From a virus (taxonomy: Duplodnaviria; Heunggongvirae; Uroviricota; Caudoviricetes), in IMG/VR virus record IMGVR_UViG_2579778784_000011: DNA of 4,393 nt. One strand, 5' to 3'. The notes under the pieces are model-generated. The model saw nothing but the letters and a program-made list of their open reading frames with translations. It searched no databases and was not told the DNA's origin. How positions within the stretch are numbered: position 1 is the stretch's first letter; every line of letters starts with the position of its first letter. Shown in pieces: positions 1 to 4,393 of the stretch. A program made the position numbers and the translations under genes.

Positions 1-1734
1 GCACGCAACGCTGAAGCCGCCTCTCAGAGCGCAGCGGCAGCAAAGAAATCAGAAACAGCAGCGGCATCGTCCAGGAATGCGGCGAAAACATCAGAGACGA
101 ATGCAGGTAACAGCGCGAAAGCGGCAGCTTCTTCAAAAACAGCCGCACAAAACGCAGCAACAGCGGCAGAACGTTCAGAGACAAATGCCCGTGCGTCAGA
201 AGAAGCCTCCGCAGACAGTGAAGAGGCTTCCCGCCGTAATGCAGAGTCAGCCGCTGAAAATGCCGGAGTCGCCACCACAAAAGCGCGGGAGGCCGCAGCA
301 GACGCAACAAAGGCCGGGCAGAAAAAGGATGAGGCTCTGTCGGCAGCGACACGGGCTGAAAAGGCGGCAGACCGCGCAGAAGTCGCAGCGGAAGTGACTG
401 CAGAGCCCTATGCGAATATAGTGCCGCCGCTGCCTGATGTGTGGATACCGTTTAACGATTCACTGGATATGATTGCGGGTTTTTCTCCGGGCTATAAAAA
501 AATAGCTATTGGTGACGATGTGGTTCAGGTCGCCAGTGATAAACAGGTTAATTTCAGTCGCGCATCAACGGCAACATATATCAACAAATCTGGCGAACTG
601 AAAACGGCGGAAATTAATGAGCCGCGATTTGAGTGTGATGGCCTGCTTATTGAGGGACAAAGAACGAACTACATGCTCAATTCGGAAAGTCCAGCCAGCT
701 GGGGGAAGTCATCAAACATGGATGTGCCCGAAACCGGGACGGATAGTTTTGGTTTTACTTATGGAAAGTTTGTCTGCAACGATTCTCTGGTTGGGCAAAC
801 TTCGGCTATTAATATGGCATCAATTGCTGCAACAAAGTCAGTTGATGTCTCAGGCGATAACAAGTACGTGACAACCTCATGCCGTTTTAAAACAGAACGA
901 CAGGTAAGGTTACGTATACGGTTTGATAAGTATGATGGTAGTGCAACAACTTTTCTTGGCGATGCGTACATTGATACGCAAACGCTTGAAATTAATATGA
1001 CAGGTGGTGCTGCCGGCAGAATTACGGCACGAGTCAGGAAGGATAAGACCACAGGCTGGATTTTTGCAGAGGCAACGATTCAGGCAATTGATGGTGAGTT
1101 AAAAATAGGCTCTCAGATACAGTATTCTCCTGAGCAGGGTGGGGCAACAGTATCTGGTGACTATATTTATCTTGCCACCCCACAAGTAGAGAATGGGCCG
1201 TGTGTATCATCATTTATTATTTCAGGAGGCAGCGCAACGACAAGAGCCAGTGATTTGGTTAGTATCCCCACCAGAAATAATCTTTATAAGTTACCATTTA
1301 CTTTTTTACTTGAGATTCATAAAAACTGGGATATTGCACCAAACGCCGCACCCCGCGTGTGGGATATAGCAGCAGCCAATACCGGGCAATTAGCAATTGC
1401 AGCAATCAACAGAGGTAGTGGTAAGTTATATATGAGTCTGTCAAACCCTTCAGGCTCGTATGTTAATAGCGCAGCGACAGATGTATTTGCAGAGAAAACC
1501 ACATTTGGATGTATTGCAAAAGCTGATGGTCACTTTCATGTGGTGACAAATGGTAAAGCGGTTAATGAAGTTTATTGTGAATATAATGGCGTGACCGCTG
1601 ATAAAAATATCCGATTTGGAGGGCAGACGAATACTGGAGAACGACATCTGTTTGGCCATATTCGCAATTTCCGCATATGGCATAAAGAAAAGCAATTGCA
1701 GCAATCAACAGAGGTAGTGGTAAGTTATATATGA
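1..1734 (+). CDS. side tail fibre protein (Stf-like), 5'-partial at window edge; 3' end frameshifted by a tandem duplication
   Basis: Frame 1 is open from nt 1 with no stop until 1732-1734, so the gene enters the window in progress and the GTG at 394 in the ORF track is internal. The first ~130 codons are an Ala/Ser/Thr/Glu/Lys-rich low-complexity shaft (e.g. AAKTSETNAGNSAKAAASSKTAAQNAATAAERSETNARASEEA), as in lambdoid Stf-type side tail fibres. A less GC-rich C-terminal region follows. The last 14 codons before the stop lie in copy 2 of the 299-bp duplication and are read out of phase. Confidence 0.8.
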   Translation, partial: ARNAEAASQSAAAAKKSETAAASSRNAAKTSETNAGNSAKAAASSKTAAQNAATAAERSETNARASEEASADSEEASRRNAESAAENAGVATTKAREAAADATKAGQKKDEALSAATRAEKAADRAEVAAEVTAEPYANIVPPLPDVWIPFNDSLDMIAGFSPGYKKIAIGDDVVQVASDKQVNFSRASTATYINKSGELKTAEINEPRFECDGLLIEGQRTNYMLNSESPASWGKSSNMDVPETGTDSFGFTYGKFVCNDSLVGQTSAINMASIAATKSVDVSGDNKYVTTSCRFKTERQVRLRIRFDKYDGSATTFLGDAYIDTQTLEINMTGGAAGRITARVRKDKTTGWIFAEATIQAIDGELKIGSQIQYSPEQGGATVSGDYIYLATPQVENGPCVSSFIISGGSATTRASDLVSIPTRNNLYKLPFTFLLEIHKNWDIAPNAAPRVWDIAAANTGQLAIAAINRGSGKLYMSLSNPSGSYVNSAATDVFAEKTTFGCIAKADGHFHVVTNGKAVNEVYCEYNGVTADKNIRFGGQTNTGERHLFGHIRNFRIWHKEKQLQQSTEVVVSYI

Positions 1735-1989
1735 GTCTGTCAAACCCTTCAGGCTCGTATGTTAATAGCGCAGCGACAGATGTATTTGCAGAGAAAACCA
1801 CATTTGGATGTATTGCAAAAGCTGATGGTCACTTTCATGTGGTGACAAATGGTAAAGCGGTTAATGAAGTTTATTGTGAATATAATGGCGTGACCGCTGA
1901 TAAAAATATCCGATTTGGAGGGCAGACGAATACTGGAGAACGACATCTGTTTGGCCATATTCGCAATTTCCGCATATGGCATAAAGAAT
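1392..1989. repeat. perfect direct tandem duplication, 2 x 299 bp (unit 1392-1689, junction base A at 1690, copy 1691-1988)
   Basis: Base-by-base comparison: 1392-1689 is identical to 1691-1988 over 298 bp. The first difference is 1690 (A) versus 1989 (T). Confidence 0.97.
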
Positions 1990-2021
1990 TAAATGACAGG
2001 CAATTAAAAGAGGTCGTATGA
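1731..2021 (+). CDS. displaced tail fibre C-terminal fragment (copy 2 of the duplicated segment in the native phase); likely remnant, not an independent gene
   Basis: Encodes the same 85 residues as copy 1 (MSLSNPSGSY...FRIWHKE), then LNDRQLKEVV and a TGA that overlaps the next ATG (ATGA at 2018-2021). This looks like the original end of the tail fibre gene. Its own ATG overlaps the upstream stop (ATGA at 1731-1734), so reinitiation is possible. Confidence 0.4.
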   Translation: MSLSNPSGSYVNSAATDVFAEKTTFGCIAKADGHFHVVTNGKAVNEVYCEYNGVTADKNIRFGGQTNTGERHLFGHIRNFRIWHKELNDRQLKEVV

Positions 2022-2296
2022 AAGATTTAACTTTGAAGTTTCATGACAAACTGCAGTTTAAGGCCTTCCTGTCATCTCTTGGCTGGGCGGAAGATGAAGA
2101 CCTCCAGAATAAACTGTTAGTTGATGAAATTGGTTTCACCTACACAGAAACAGGGGTAACAGAAGAGGGAGAACCTGTCTGTATCCGGAATGATGGTTAT
2201 TTTGTCAACATTCGCATTCTTGATGACTTGTTTGATGTTTCTGTATTCTCTGATTATGTCGTGGAGCTGGAAACACCGCTTCGGGAATGGAGCTGA
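2018..2296 (+). CDS. hypothetical small acidic protein (92 aa), translationally coupled to the tail fibre gene
   Basis: ATG at 2018 overlaps the native-phase tail fibre stop (ATGA), with AAGAGG a few nt upstream. 92 aa, strongly acidic (about 20 Asp/Glu versus 8 Lys/Arg). No motif recognised. Its 3' two-thirds lies inside the 271-bp duplication. Confidence 0.6.
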   Translation: MKDLTLKFHDKLQFKAFLSSLGWAEDEDLQNKLLVDEIGFTYTETGVTEEGEPVCIRNDGYFVNIRILDDLFDVSVFSDYVVELETPLREWS

Positions 2297-2618
2297 AAGG
2301 AGGAAATAATGGATATAAGCCCCTTACTTCATGCACTTTGTGCTGTATCTTGGCTGGGCGGAAGATGAAGACCTCCAGAATAAACTGTTAGTTGATGAAA
2401 TTGGTTTCACCTACACAGAAACAGGGGTAACAGAAGAGGGAGAACCTGTCTGTATCCGGAATGATGGTTATTTTGTCAACATTCGCATTCTTGATGACTT
2501 GTTTGATGTTTCTGTATTCTCTGATTATGTCGTGGAGCTGGAAACACCGCTTCGGGAATGGAGCTGAAAGGAGGAAATAATGGATATAAGCCCCTTACTT
2601 CATGCACTTTGTGCTGTG
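2077..2618. repeat. perfect direct tandem duplication, 2 x 271 bp (unit 2077-2346, junction base A at 2347, copy 2348-2617)
   Basis: Base-by-base comparison: 2077-2346 is identical to 2348-2617 over 270 bp. Position 2347 is A where the base after copy 2 (2618) is G. Confidence 0.97.
2331..2567 (+). CDS. chimeric duplicate ORF created by the 271-bp duplication; probably not an independent gene
   Basis: MHFVLY, from the start region of the downstream gene, is fused in frame to residues 21-92 of the 2018-2296 product. No Shine-Dalgarno precedes its ATG. The strong RBS+ATG at 2297-2311 instead opens a 19-codon ORF ending at 2363-2365. Confidence 0.3.
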   Translation: MHFVLYLGWAEDEDLQNKLLVDEIGFTYTETGVTEEGEPVCIRNDGYFVNIRILDDLFDVSVFSDYVVELETPLREWS

Positions 2619-2868
2619 GCTGCGCAGATACTGGTTGGTCTTTTTTACCGGAAACTGGGCTTACGGAGCGATAGCCGGTTGTACGTTCTTCATTGCGCGT
2701 GAACATACCCAGGCAGAATATCGCTGGATTGAAATGTTCGGGCATGGCAAGCGAATGAATATGCCGTGGTGGGGCGGTTTTGATCCGCGTGCTTGGGATG
2801 TGGCAAGCCTGATGGATTTTGCTGTGCCGGTGGTGGCGTGTCTGCTGATCTGGATGTTGATCCGTTAA
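2602..2868 (+). CDS. hypothetical small membrane protein (88 aa, two predicted transmembrane segments); start uncertain
   Basis: Open frame with enterobacterial-like codon choice (CTG, GTG, CCG, GCG frequent). Two hydrophobic stretches long enough to span a membrane (WLVFFTGNWAYGAIAGCTFFIA and VASLMDFAVPVVACLLIWMLI), with Arg-Arg before the first. No Shine-Dalgarno before ATG 2602; a strong AAGGAGG-N5-ATG lies at 2568-2582 in a different frame. Confidence 0.55.
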   Translation: MHFVLWLRRYWLVFFTGNWAYGAIAGCTFFIAREHTQAEYRWIEMFGHGKRMNMPWWGGFDPRAWDVASLMDFAVPVVACLLIWMLIR

Positions 2869-2919
2869 ATATAAAAAGTAAAAAGCCGCAGTAACTTGTC
2901 ATGATAGGATACTGCGGCT
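2869..2919 (-). terminator. candidate intrinsic terminator for dinI (hairpin plus U-tract on the minus strand), possibly bidirectional
   Basis: Inverted repeat AGCCGCAGTA (2884-2893) / TACTGCGGCT (2910-2919): a 10-bp stem with a 16-nt loop. On the minus strand the stem is followed by UUUUACUUUUUAUAU (complement of 2869-2883), about 65 nt past the dinI stop. The loop is long for a canonical terminator. Confidence 0.45.
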
Positions 2920-2985
2920 GGCTGGTTAACTTTCGATAGTGCGAGTATTGAATGATTTCCAGCCGTTACTGATTTTACGTGCTAA

Positions 2986-3234
2986 TTAGTGAACAAACCA
3001 CTCGTCAGCAGACTCCCAGGTATCTTTCAGAGTTTCCTGAACAAAAGTTTTAGCTGAATCTTTATCGGCGGTGCGCGTAACAGAAAGGCCATCGTTGCTG
3101 GTGGCTTTTACGATCACCTCTACATCGTCATAACGTTTACTGATGCGTCGGGTTAATTCTTCCTTTAACGCATCCACAGCACCGTTTGGCATTTTAGTCA
3201 TTTTTTCTTTGGCTATGCAGATCTCAATACGCAT
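2986..3234 (-). CDS. dinI: DinI-family DNA-damage-inducible protein (82 aa)
   Basis: The translation [82 protein letters not shown] matches my memory of E. coli DinI at many positions (MRIE..IAK, GA.DAL, EL.RRI, LSV, QET, TWESAD.WFV). It is preceded by an AGAGGG Shine-Dalgarno and two LexA boxes. Not verified by search. Confidence 0.9.
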
Positions 3235-3249
3235 AAAAGTCCCTCTATA

Positions 3250-3265
3250 CTGTGTTTGTATACAG
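3250..3265 (-). promoter_or_regulatory. LexA box (SOS operator), promoter-proximal, overlapping the likely transcription start of dinI
   Basis: CTGTGTTTGTATACAG on the + strand matches the CTGT-N8-ACAG core of the enterobacterial LexA consensus TACTGTATATATATACAGTA, with flanking TA...TG. It lies 16-31 nt upstream of the dinI ATG. Confidence 0.75.
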
Positions 3266-3270
3266 TGTTA

Positions 3271-3299
3271 TTTTTAACTGTATGGATAAACAGTGTCAA
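3271..3299 (-). promoter_or_regulatory. candidate sigma70 promoter of dinI (-35 TTGACA at 3294-3299, -10 TAAAAA/AAAAAT near 3270-3276, minus-strand sense)
   Basis: Minus-strand sequence is cTTGACA-ctgtttatccatacagt-TAAAAAt: a perfect -35 hexamer, a 17-18 bp spacer and an A/T-rich -10 (4/6 match to TATAAT). The -35 hexamer overlaps the integrase stop codon (3296-3298). Confidence 0.5.
3278..3293 (-). promoter_or_regulatory. second LexA box, occupying the -35/-10 spacer of the dinI promoter
   Basis: CTGTATGGATAAACAG (CTGT-N8-ACAG), 12 bp from the first box and directly abutting the TTGACA -35 element. Confidence 0.75.
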
Positions 3300-4393
3300 G
3301 AGGTCTTATTTCTGCTCCTTTGGAGCTCTTCAAAACGATTATGTAAAGATTTCGGATACAGTTCGGTATATACCTGCCATAGCACGTTTAATGAACGATG
3401 CCCTGTAACCTGAGCGACTTCCTCAATACTAAAACCAGCCTCAAATAAGCGACTTGCCCCTTCTCTACGCAAATCATGGTATCGCAGATCTTTAATACCT
3501 AATTTGCTTCTTACCCTCTGAAATCCTGCAGTAACAGAAGTGCTGTTATATGGAAAAATGAATTCCGATTTTTTGGGCTGTCGTTGGACGATATCCCAGG
3601 CTTCCCCAAGCAAGGCTACTTTCATGTGGTTGCCTTCCTTTTTGCGTGGATCTTTCCTGTCTCTTACGAGTATAGATTTTTGTTCCTGGTCGAGATCTTC
3701 CCATCGTAACCGGCATACTTCTCCGATCCGCATACAGGACCACACAGAAAATTTGAGGATATCAACGAACGGAATTTTTGAGCATTTATGAGTAGATCGT
3801 TGTTGAAGGCCTTCAATGAGCATGTCCAGTTCATCAGATGCTGGTCTACGATTACGACGGTTTGATTTACCAATCAAACCAAGTTTAAGTAGATATGGGC
3901 GAGCGCTTTTCGCCGGGTTTGATGTGTAATTAATTCCGTATACAGGTTTGGCCGCATCCAGAACACTGCCAAGATAACTAACATCGTGGCTGACTGTTGC
4001 TGGACCTGCACCAGCGTTGTTTCTTAGCCTGCAATGTTCAATTACGTCATTTTCTGTCAGTTCAGATAGTTTGATCGCGGAGATGTCACTATCCATAAGC
4101 AGTTCCAGCACATATCTTTTAGTACGGCCTGCTTTACCTCCGGCATTTGGGTCATTTAAATATTTGTGTAGTAAGTCACGGACTGTAAGTCCGTCAACTG
4201 CATTTGATGATGGAATGCCATATAGATCTAATTCCATCACTTTCTGTGTTCCCCATGTTTTGGCATGAGCATGTTTAGGGAATGTTTTGCTTTCCCTGTA
4301 AGTGATAACACCTTTTTCTTTGATAATCACATTACAGCGATAGCGTGGTGTGCCATCGGATTTTAGTCGTTTCTCTATGTTATAGTACGCCAT
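3296..4393 (-). CDS. int: phage integrase, tyrosine recombinase family (365 aa); ATG at window edge, apparently complete
   Basis: C-terminal catalytic-domain signature in order: Arg in MRIGEVCRLRWEDL, Lys in KKEGNHMKVAL, HDLRREGASRL (His-x-x-Arg), GHRSLNVLWQVYTEL (His/Trp and the presumptive catalytic Tyr). Size is typical of lambda-like integrases, and it sits next to a tail module and a moron region. Start codon is at 4391-4393; an upstream extension beyond the window cannot be excluded. Confidence 0.9.
   Translation of the reverse strand: MAYYNIEKRLKSDGTPRYRCNVIIKEKGVITYRESKTFPKHAHAKTWGTQKVMELDLYGIPSSNAVDGLTVRDLLHKYLNDPNAGGKAGRTKRYVLELLMDSDISAIKLSELTENDVIEHCRLRNNAGAGPATVSHDVSYLGSVLDAAKPVYGINYTSNPAKSARPYLLKLGLIGKSNRRNRRPASDELDMLIEGLQQRSTHKCSKIPFVDILKFSVWSCMRIGEVCRLRWEDLDQEQKSILVRDRKDPRKKEGNHMKVALLGEAWDIVQRQPKKSEFIFPYNSTSVTAGFQRVRSKLGIKDLRYHDLRREGASRLFEAGFSIEEVAQVTGHRSLNVLWQVYTELYPKSLHNRFEELQRSRNKTS

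What the first reader, a model, noticed from the sequence alone, without database searches (positions are those of the whole stretch)
1392..2618. Two independent zero-divergence duplications within 1.2 kb share one junction signature
Both events are exact copies of a unit (298 bp and 270 bp) separated by one extra A, and both give periods not divisible by 3. Two recent duplications this close together, with the same junction form, are unlikely as independent natural events. More plausible are a common mechanism (replication slippage or template switching in a recombination-prone tail fibre region), a mis-assembled concatemeric read, or deliberate engineering. Repeats are direct and identical, which rules out a diversity-generating retroelement or an invertase/shufflon switch.
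Basis: partly seen in the sequence, partly recalled or inferred. Interest (0 to 1): 0.6.

Follow-up and report, generated by a model that had tools for sequence, protein, structure and literature searches.

The report
Probable false duplications from unmerged overlaps
Two perfect back-to-back duplications at the end of a coliphage tail-fibre gene are really in this sequence, but they look like three overlapping sequence pieces pasted end to end rather than merged, so they are most likely an assembly artefact and not biology.

Summary
Units 1392-1689/1691-1988 (298 nt) and 2077-2346/2348-2617 (270 nt) are 100% identical tandem copies, each pair separated by one A.

The window is the side-tail-fibre to integrase end of a phage-21/mEp460-like E. 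coli prophage. Removing one copy of each unit, plus its A, gives 3,823 nt collinear with every relative. Neither junction occurs in 5,426 complete E. coli genomes, INPHARED, IMG/VR, GTDB or JGI contigs.

Both junctions have 0 bp of microhomology, and the A is templated by neither flank. That argues against slippage.

The units lie only 88 nt apart, so the window reads as [1-1689]+A+[1691-2346]+A+[2348-4393]: three overlapping pieces placed end to end. Each piece matches a public sequence exactly:
- Piece 1 matches only a sit-adjacent prophage allele.
- Piece 2 matches the dusA-prophage contig and seven other loci.
- Piece 3 matches only that dusA-prophage contig.

The last left-parent marker (1391) touches the first unit's boundary.

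Best reading (about 0.6): false tandem duplications from unmerged overlapping contigs or reads across a module present twice per genome. A real complex duplication or a deliberate edit cannot be excluded without reads. Interest is low.

The parts
1..1689 (+). Piece 1: side tail fibre (Stf) codons 114-676. It carries the 'P' allele found in sit-adjacent prophages, including the rare T at 1391.
   Evidence: Exact substring of L004 and L005 only, among 17 related loci. SNP table. Stf identity from PF08400, Laminin_G_3 and phrog_1419 on the intact L010 homologue.
1392..1689 (+). Unit U1, copy 1 (298 nt). Encodes Stf residues about 578-676, in the C-terminal concanavalin/LamG-like region.
1690..1690 (+). 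Junction base A of D1. It is templated by neither flank: T at 1391 (C in most relatives) and T at 1989.
1691..1988 (+). Unit U1, copy 2 (298 nt), 100% identical to copy 1. It is also the start of piece 2.
1691..2346 (+). Piece 2 (656 nt) = U1 + 88-nt spacer + U2. It carries the 'Q' allele C at 2042.
   Evidence: Exact substring of L010 and seven other loci, but not of L004 or L005.
1989..2076 (+). 88-nt single-copy spacer between the two units. It holds the stf stop codon, the start of orf92 (ATGA overlap at 2018-2021) and the parent-discriminating site 2042.
2077..2346 (+). Unit U2, copy 1 (270 nt). Runs from codon 20 of orf92, through its stop and the RBS, to codon 13 of the membrane-protein gene.
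2347..2347 (+). Junction base A of D2. It is templated by neither flank (C at 2076, G at 2618).
2348..2617 (+). Unit U2, copy 2 (270 nt), 100% identical to copy 1. It is also the start of piece 3.
2348..4393 (+). Piece 3: U2, the frameshifted membrane-protein gene, dinI-like gene and dusA-type integrase, all 'Q' allele.
   Evidence: Exact substring of L010 only. L010 places this integrase next to dusA.
1..1734 (+). Stf reading frame as it stands in the window. After ...FRIWHKE it runs into copy 2 out of frame and ends ...KQLQQSTEVVVSYI* in place of the natural ...LNDRQLKEVV*.
1731..2021 (+). 96-aa ORF created by copy 2. It is the natural last 96 residues of Stf.
   Evidence: The same 96-aa product is called in many genomes where stf is broken upstream.
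2018..2296 (+). orf92 (phrog_1361, function unknown), intact in copy 1.
2309..2368 (+). Membrane-protein gene start in copy 1, truncated to 19 aa (MDISPLLHALCAVSWLGGR*) by the D2 junction.
2331..2567 (+). 78-aa hybrid ORF that spans the D2 junction. It is not found in any public collection.
2580..2868 (+). Membrane-protein gene (phrog_1443, 95 aa in relatives). Here it is split into 40-aa and 88-aa ORFs by a 6-T run at 2636-2641; relatives have 5 T.
2986..3234 (-). DinI-like gene. Context only; not part of the duplications.
   Evidence: PF06183, E = 1.2e-19.
3296..4393 (-). Tyrosine integrase of the dusA-integrating type. Context only. The window ends exactly at its start codon.
   Evidence: PF00589. 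Adjacent to dusA in L002, L006 and L010.

Best explanation
The two duplications are probably not present in the biological DNA. They look like false tandem duplications, made when three overlapping sequence pieces were placed end to end without merging their overlaps. The pieces could be contigs, gap-fill sequence, reads or amplicon sequences.

The pieces are window 1-1689, 1691-2346 and 2348-4393. The 298-nt and 270-nt 'units' are simply the overlaps between neighbouring pieces. The single A at each join is a non-genomic base at the 3' end of the left-hand piece. It could be a leftover A-tail or first adapter base, a read-end error, a non-templated polymerase addition, or a one-base gap placeholder turned into A. 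A terminal mismatch of this kind would also explain why an exact-overlap merge failed.

The likely trigger is that this stf-orf92-membrane module occurs twice per genome in many E. coli strains, as about 99.8%-identical copies: one in a sit-adjacent prophage and one in a dusA-integrated prophage. Assemblers break there and build variant-anchored pieces that share their ends.

Shown here:
- the three-piece geometry;
- the exact parentage of each piece;
- the lack of microhomology;
- the absence of both junctions from all collections searched.

Inferred: that the join was made in silico or from chimeric library molecules, and where the A came from.
For: 1. Collapsing both duplications gives 3,823 nt collinear end to end with all relatives, which are all single-copy.

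2. Neither junction exists in 5,426 complete E. coli genomes (only two-piece hits to the ends of one unit), INPHARED phages (only junction 1 was searched there), IMG/VR, GTDB genome contigs or JGI metagenome contigs. The junction-specific ORFs are absent from a 15-billion-protein index.

3. In single-copy coordinates the units are 88 nt apart, so one cause explains both events: a 656-nt middle piece that overlaps its neighbours by 298 and 270 nt.

4. Each piece is a 100% exact substring of a public sequence. Piece 1 matches only L004 and L005 (sit-adjacent prophage). Piece 2 matches L010 and seven other loci. Piece 3 matches only L010 (dusA prophage). The parent therefore changes across junction 1.

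5. The last left-parent marker (1391 T; 7 of 577 E. coli records) is the base immediately outside U1. Simulation gives p of about 0.012 for such adjacency.

6. All 7 genomes with 1391 T carry two copies of the module. TUM13754 has both the sit-adjacent and the dusA-integrated versions.

7. Draft assemblies visibly struggle here. Two NCBI drafts have 10-N scaffold gaps inside stf. Many 'partial' products of the 95-aa gene are on record.

8. The window has no private substitutions. Its only private features are the two insertions.

9. Both junctions have 0 bp of microhomology plus an untemplated A, unlike E. coli duplication junctions, which had 4-15 bp in 31 of 31 cases (PMC1428787).

10. The error class is documented. 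'Duplicated overlapping contigs' arise when two divergent copies are assembled separately and placed adjacently (Kelley & Salzberg 2010, PMC2864568).

11. Both events destroy reading frames and create no sensible product.
Against: - No reads, coverage, AGP file or assembly graph are available, so the artefact is inferred and not demonstrated.
- The D2 boundaries do not coincide with any polymorphism seen in 13 relatives.
- The overlaps (298 and 270 nt) differ, so a fixed-k de Bruijn explanation does not fit. Only a read-limited or overlap-layout picture does.
- Kelley & Salzberg note that duplications inside a single contig are rarely mis-assemblies. The explanation therefore needs a scaffolding, gap-filling or manual joining step.
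- The origin of the A is unproven.
- A P-left/Q-right hybrid could equally be a natural recombinant, so the mosaic alone does not prove a chimeric join.
- The adjacency statistic was computed post hoc.
Confidence: 0.6

Rival explanations
1. The duplications are real and very recent, and arose in one complex event. A broken or stalled replication or repair intermediate in the phage or prophage DNA switched template twice within about 650 bp, without homology. Alternatively, its ends were joined by an end-joining reaction. Either way, a polymerase added one untemplated A at each join. The result is a prophage or phage with a disabled side tail fibre C-terminus and a scrambled orf92/membrane-gene junction. 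This is tolerated because side tail fibres are dispensable (lambda PaPa carries an stf frameshift; established knowledge).
For: - The sequence as given contains the junctions.
- An identical junction form and 88-nt proximity fit one event better than two.
- Zero divergence fits recency.
- Bacterial tandem duplications with 0-1 bp of junction homology have been reported in Pseudomonas (bioRxiv 10.64898/2026.05.22.727201).
- stf is often already broken in related prophages.
- The neighbouring membrane gene in this lineage is already a pseudogene, so selection on this module is weak.
Against: - No other genome or contig in any collection has either junction.
- E. coli lacks Ku/LigD (established knowledge), and its characterised duplication junctions use 4-15 bp of microhomology. 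Here there is 0 bp plus a filler base, twice.
- Direct repeats of 270-300 bp are recombinationally unstable in RecA+/Red+ backgrounds (established knowledge), so catching two at once is a priori very improbable.
- This model does not explain why the rare 1391 marker abuts the unit boundary.
Confidence: 0.15
2. Chimeric molecules made in vitro during library preparation or amplification supplied genuine junction-containing reads, and the assembler then threaded them into the contig. Possible sources are A-tailed fragments of about 300 bp that self-ligated or concatenated, or an exo-minus polymerase that added a 3' A and then jumped.
For: - The untemplated base is A at both joins, which is the base added in A-tailing and by Taq-type polymerases (established knowledge).
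- Unit sizes of 298 and 270 nt are typical short-insert fragment sizes.
- There is no microhomology.
- The junctions are absent everywhere else.
Against: - Ligation of two A-overhangs is inefficient, and random chimeras would not be this local.
- This model needs two such molecules within 1.2 kb to survive assembly.
- It does not explain the parental switch or the 1391 adjacency.
Confidence: 0.1
3. The sequence was deliberately edited or constructed. One possibility is concatenation of overlapping amplicon or donor-fragment sequences from a phage-engineering design (a 656-bp fragment with about 300-bp arms). Another is duplications introduced in silico.
For: - The form 'unit + A + unit' is identical and formulaic at both sites.
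- All three pieces match public sequences at 100%, with no private substitutions.
- The source record cannot be found in any collection.
Against: - No cloning scars, restriction sites or foreign payload lie at the joins.
- The edits have no design logic, since both break reading frames.
- The coincidence of the boundary with a natural rare SNP favours a graph or variant-driven origin.
Confidence: 0.1
4. Two independent replication-slippage tandem duplications occurred in a recombination-prone tail-fibre region.
For: The tail-fibre module is mosaic among prophages.
Against: - There is 0 bp of microhomology at both junctions, plus an inserted base. Slippage requires short direct repeats.
- Two independent unfixed events, 88 nt apart, with the same odd junction, are vanishingly unlikely.
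- No copy-number variation appears in about 580-950 related E. coli records.
Confidence: 0.03

Closest known systems
False duplications from 'duplicated overlapping contigs' (Kelley & Salzberg 2010, Genome Biol 11:R28, PMC2864568)
   Same: Two slightly divergent copies of a region give contigs that share sequence at opposite ends. In that paper the copies are haplotypes; here they are two co-resident prophage modules. The contigs are placed next to each other, so the shared end appears twice in tandem. Here the overlaps are marker-free stretches between parent-discriminating sites, and the parent changes across the first join.
   Different: Described for diploid vertebrate assemblies with gaps between contigs. 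Here the source is a bacterial or phage sequence, the 'gap' is a single A, and there are no mate-pair data to apply the authors' test.
RecA-independent, microhomology-mediated tandem duplication or amplification in E. coli (Slack et al. 2006, PMC1428787)
   Same: Direct, head-to-tail duplication with a single novel junction per event.
   Different: Those junctions lie in 4-15 bp direct repeats with no inserted base. The units are kilobases long and are selected. Here there is 0 bp of microhomology, a filler A, about 300-bp units, and no conceivable selective benefit.
In-frame domain duplications in phage tail-fibre adhesins that extend host range (T4 gp37; recalled from the literature, not checked here)
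   Same: A tandem duplication inside the C-terminal, receptor-binding part of a tail fibre gene.
   Different: Those duplications are in frame and give a functional, longer adhesin. D1 here is 299 nt, shifts the frame and replaces the last 10 residues with 14 unrelated ones. D2 is not in the fibre gene at all.
Phage 21 / mEp460_4F5 / Perceval-type lambdoid late-operon end (stf-orf92-membrane ORF), with dusA-type integrase
   Same: The window, once collapsed, is 99-99.9% identical to these phages and to E. coli prophages.
   Different: All of them carry one copy of each unit. Only the ENA gut-metagenome contig L010 shares the 6-T frameshift allele.

Membership tests
False tandem duplication from unmerged overlapping contigs or reads | The duplicated copies are adjacent and (near-)identical, and removing one copy restores collinearity with related genomes. 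| tested here: met
   100% identical copies. The collapsed window aligns 1-3823 with L001, L002, L006 and L010 with no other structural difference.
False tandem duplication from unmerged overlapping contigs or reads | The region exists as two slightly divergent copies in the same genome or sample, and the pieces carry different copies' alleles. | tested here: met
   Piece 1 is exact only in the sit-prophage allele. Pieces 2 and 3 are exact in the dusA-prophage contig. All 7 genomes with the 1391 T allele hold two copies of the module. The source genome itself could not be examined.
False tandem duplication from unmerged overlapping contigs or reads | Piece boundaries are tied to variant sites or read and contig ends. 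| tested here: inconclusive
   The left boundary of D1 abuts marker 1391 (p of about 0.012). No known variant lies at the D2 boundaries. The free ends sit 293-304 nt beyond the last marker, a post hoc observation.
False tandem duplication from unmerged overlapping contigs or reads | Reads or mate pairs do not support the junctions, and depth over the units is single-copy. | not testable with these tools
   No reads, coverage or assembly metadata are available. The source record was not found.
Slippage or microhomology-mediated tandem duplication (E. coli) | A short direct repeat (microhomology) at the two breakpoints, with one copy retained at the junction. | tested here: not met
   0 bp on both sides of both junctions. 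The reference expectation is 4-15 bp.
Slippage or microhomology-mediated tandem duplication (E. coli) | No untemplated bases at the junction. | tested here: not met
   The A at 1690 and the A at 2347 match neither flank.
Slippage or microhomology-mediated tandem duplication (E. coli) | Copy-number polymorphism among related genomes. | tested here: not met
   Only single copies appear in all E. coli, phage, viral and metagenome collections searched and in 17 fetched loci.
Diversity-generating retroelement | Template and variable repeats that differ at adenines, plus a nearby reverse transcriptase. | tested here: not met
   The copies are 100% identical. The five annotated genes searched gave only Stf-type domains, DinI and a tyrosine integrase, with no reverse transcriptase family; the whole window was not screened for RT.
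Invertase or shufflon switch | Inverted repeats flanking an invertible segment, plus a dedicated recombinase. | tested here: not met
   The repeats are direct, and no inverted repeats lie at the boundaries. The only recombinase is the dusA-type prophage integrase.
Adaptive in-frame tail-fibre domain duplication | The duplication preserves the reading frame and yields a longer fibre. | tested here: not met
   The 299-nt period shifts the frame, and Stf ends 14 codons into copy 2.

The most novel reading that the evidence does not exclude
Both duplications are physically present in a temperate coliphage genome and were made in one event by a homology-independent joining or template-switching activity that adds a single untemplated A at each join. 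That would be an end-joining-like or 'A-rule' polymerase signature not expected in E. coli or lambdoid phages. It would also point to a phage- or host-encoded pathway that produces clustered short tandem duplications.
Probability: 0.1. Interest if true: 0.45.

Novelty: not a real feature. Interest (0 to 1): 0.1.

Why it matters
If this is an artefact, as I think most likely, it matters only as quality control. It would corrupt annotation by producing a truncated tail fibre, a spurious 96-aa ORF and a spurious 78-aa hybrid ORF. It would also inflate counts of 'recent duplications' in phage tail-fibre regions. The recognisable signature is unit + one untemplated base + unit, with no microhomology, neighbouring units separated by less than a read or fragment length, and a change of parental allele across the join. 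This could be used to screen other assemblies.

If the duplications were real, they would be an unusual case of homology-independent, filler-containing tandem duplication in an organism that lacks classical end joining. That would be worth a bench check, but it would still be a loss-of-function lesion and not a new system.

Tried and rejected
1. Searching for the source record or any second instance of the junctions gave no hit. I ran exact scans of IMG/VR, GTDB genome contigs and JGI metagenome contigs for both junction strings, and megablast of junction-spanning 80-mers against complete E. coli genomes (both junctions) and against INPHARED phages (junction 1 only).

2. Looking up junction-specific ORFs found nothing on record. 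These were the 78-aa hybrid, the 577-aa partial Stf and the 40-aa fragment. The 96-aa ORF is common but uninformative, because it is called wherever stf is broken upstream.

3. Phage mEp460 (NC_019716) as the source was rejected. It has a different, 1,202-aa fibre.

4. The idea that 1391 T and the extra T at 2636-2641 are private errors linked to the duplications was rejected.
   - 1391 T is a rare natural allele, present in 7 of 577 records.
   - The 6-T allele occurs in an independent Illumina/MEGAHIT gut-metagenome contig.

5. A fixed-k de Bruijn overlap (k-1 = 298) fits D1 exactly but not D2, where the overlap is 270 nt and the ends are offset 5-6 nt from the prediction. It is rejected as a complete explanation.

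6. IMG/VR scans for the 6-T allele and the 1391 T allele, made to find a natural P/Q hybrid without duplications, gave no hits.

7. The DGR, invertase and transposon-footprint readings were rejected on anatomy.

8. The promoter/terminator scan found nothing related to the junctions.
Full report
**1. Observation**

The repeats are exactly as described. The repeat finder gives 1392-1689 / 1691-1988 (298 nt, 100%) and 2077-2346 / 2348-2617 (270 nt, 100%). Tandem Repeats Finder gives periods 299 and 271, 2.0 copies, 100% match and no indels. One A sits between the copies at 1690 and at 2347. Chance cannot produce this.

**2. What the region is**

The window is the right end of the late operon of a phage-21 / mEp460_4F5 / Perceval-type lambdoid prophage of E. 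coli. Its genes, in order:

| Window position | Gene | Evidence |
|---|---|---|
| 1 onward | Side tail fibre Stf, from codon 114 (PF08400 N-terminal domain in the intact homologue, weak Laminin_G_3 C-terminal match, phrog_1419) | |
| 2018-2296 | 92-aa gene of unknown function (phrog_1361) | |
| 2580-2868 | 95-aa membrane-protein gene (phrog_1443) | |
| 2986-3234, minus strand | DinI-like gene | |
| 3296-4393, minus strand | Tyrosine integrase, next to dusA in the closest relatives | |

**3. Comparison with relatives**

Deleting 1690-1988 and 2347-2617 leaves 3,823 nt. This aligns end to end with mEp460_4F5, E. coli C25 and TUM13754 at 99.2-99.4%. It aligns with a human-gut metagenome contig (ENA ERZ915809 k127_2055, L010) with only four substitutions. 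Every relative has one copy of each unit.

Junction-spanning 80-mers hit complete E. coli genomes (both junctions) and INPHARED phages (junction 1 only) solely as two pieces that map to the two ends of one unit. Exact junction strings are absent from IMG/VR, GTDB genome contigs and JGI metagenome contigs. ORFs created by the junctions are absent from the 15-billion-protein index. TRF finds no comparable repeat in this module in 17 related loci.

**4. What else is private to the window**

Nothing else is.
- With 13 relatives aligned, every substitution in the window is seen in at least one of them.
- The T at 1391 is a rare natural allele, present in 7 of 577 E. coli records.
- The extra T in the run at 2636-2641 frameshifts the membrane gene. 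It is absent from 1,241 E. coli records but present in L010, an independent Illumina/MEGAHIT assembly. Its 88-aa product is on record from only two ENA contigs.

The only unique features are therefore the two insertions of 299 and 271 nt.

**5. Junction anatomy**

Both junctions have 0 bp of microhomology on either side. The A matches neither the base before the unit (T, C) nor the base after it (T, G).

Characterised E. coli duplication and amplification junctions lie in 4-15 bp direct repeats; this held for 31 of 31 in Slack et al. 2006 (PMC1428787). E. coli has no Ku/LigD end joining (established knowledge). Slippage, or microhomology-guided template switching, is therefore not supported.

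**6. Geometry**

In single-copy coordinates the layout is L - U1(298) - S(88) - U2(270) - R. The window is [L U1] A [U1 S U2] A [U2 R].

That is three overlapping pieces (1-1689, 1691-2346, 2348-4393) placed end to end, each of the first two followed by one extra A. One cause then explains:
- both 'events';
- their proximity;
- the zero divergence between copies;
- the shared junction form;
- periods that ignore the reading frame.

**7. Parentage of the pieces**

Exact-substring tests gave:

| Piece | Exact substring of |
|---|---|
| 1 | Only L004 and L005, the sit-adjacent prophage of strains TUM13754 and F11 |
| 2 | L010 and seven other loci, but not L004 or L005 |
| 3 | Only L010 |

The SNP table shows the window equals L004/L005 from 1 to 2041 and equals L010 from 1392 to the end. 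The parental switch therefore falls in the interval that contains junction 1.

The last left-parent marker (1391) is the base immediately outside U1. A simulation gives about 0.012 for such adjacency by chance (the test was chosen post hoc).

The three markers that separate the two parents bracket the units:
- 1391 lies just left of U1.
- 2042 lies inside the 88-nt spacer.
- The T-run lies 18 nt right of U2.

The overlaps are thus exactly the marker-free shared stretches. The free ends of the pieces lie 298, 304 and 293 nt beyond their last discriminating marker. That is roughly one 300-nt read. This is suggestive only.

**8. Why an assembler would stumble here**

All seven complete genomes with the 1391 T allele contain two copies of this module. 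TUM13754 carries it both next to sitABCD and in a dusA-integrated prophage. Across E. coli genomes that match the window, the median is two matching places per genome.

Draft assemblies show 10-N gaps inside stf (L013, L014) and many 'partial' products of the 95-aa gene. This matches the 'duplicated overlapping contigs' error of Kelley & Salzberg 2010 (PMC2864568), with two co-resident prophage copies playing the part of the two haplotypes.

**9. Consequences if taken at face value**

- Stf loses its last 10 residues (LNDRQLKEVV) and gains KQLQQSTEVVVSYI.
- A 96-aa ORF repeats the natural Stf C-terminus.
- The first copy of the membrane gene is cut to 19 aa.
- A 78-aa hybrid ORF spans junction 2.

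Nothing functional is created.

**10. Verdict**

| Explanation | Estimated probability |
|---|---|
| False tandem duplications from three overlapping pieces abutted rather than merged | about 0.6 |
| Real, single complex homology-independent event | about 0.15 |
| Library-preparation chimeras that were then assembled | about 0.1 |
| Deliberate or in-silico construction | about 0.1 |
| Two independent slippage events | about 0.03 |

In the best explanation, the filler A is a non-genomic terminal base: an adapter or A-tail remnant, a read-end error, a polymerase addition, or N converted to A. Its origin is not established.

The decisive data are the raw reads, or a PCR across 1300-2700 (1,401 bp versus 831 bp). 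I could not obtain either. Interest is low whichever explanation is right.

Noticed in passing
window 2636-2641 (ORFs 2580-2702 and 2602-2868): A 6-T run, where relatives have 5 T, frameshifts the conserved 95-aa membrane-protein gene (phrog_1443). The allele is absent from 1,241 E. coli records. It is shared with one human-gut metagenome contig, ENA ERZ915809 k127_2055. The 88-aa product is on record from only 2 contigs among 15 billion proteins. It is therefore a rare but real lineage marker, not a private error.
   Followed up: yes
window 1-2859 versus 2860-4393; loci L004, L005, L010: The window is a mosaic. Its left part is identical to the module next to sitABCD in strains F11 and TUM13754. 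From 1392 onward it is identical to a dusA-integrated prophage. The same stf-orf92-membrane module sits in two different prophage contexts (sit-adjacent and dusA-integrated), often both in one genome.
   Followed up: partly
window 2884-2919: A hairpin lies between the convergent late operon and the dinI-int unit. It has a perfect 9-bp stem, GCCGCAGTA...TACTGCGGC, with a 16-nt loop. An A-run precedes it on the + strand, which is a T-run after it on the - strand. It looks like a terminator for the minus-strand dinI/int transcript. The consensus scan missed it because its loop limit is 8 nt.
   Followed up: no
L013 and L014 (NCBI drafts SQLI01000048, SQDL01000104), equivalent to window positions about 1095-1101: A run of 10 N (a scaffold gap) sits inside the same stf gene in two draft assemblies. 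In addition, many 'partial' versions of the 95-aa protein are deposited. Contig breaks commonly fall in this module.
   Followed up: partly
L009 (E. coli SCU-484, NZ_CP051744): The same 2.3-kb module carries at least 9 single-base indels, including a 7-T run. Both stf and the membrane gene are annotated as frameshifted. This looks like unpolished long-read homopolymer error rather than biology.
   Followed up: no
window 3270-3299 (- strand): A promoter-like site (TTGACA, 18-nt spacer, AAAAAT) overlaps the 3' end of int, upstream of dinI. It is in the position where the mEp460 record annotates a promoter.
   Followed up: no
window ends (1 and 4393): The window starts in frame at codon 114 of stf, just past the widely shared PF08400 N-terminal domain. 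It ends exactly on the start codon of int. This may reflect contig or extraction boundaries at repeat or gene edges.
   Followed up: no
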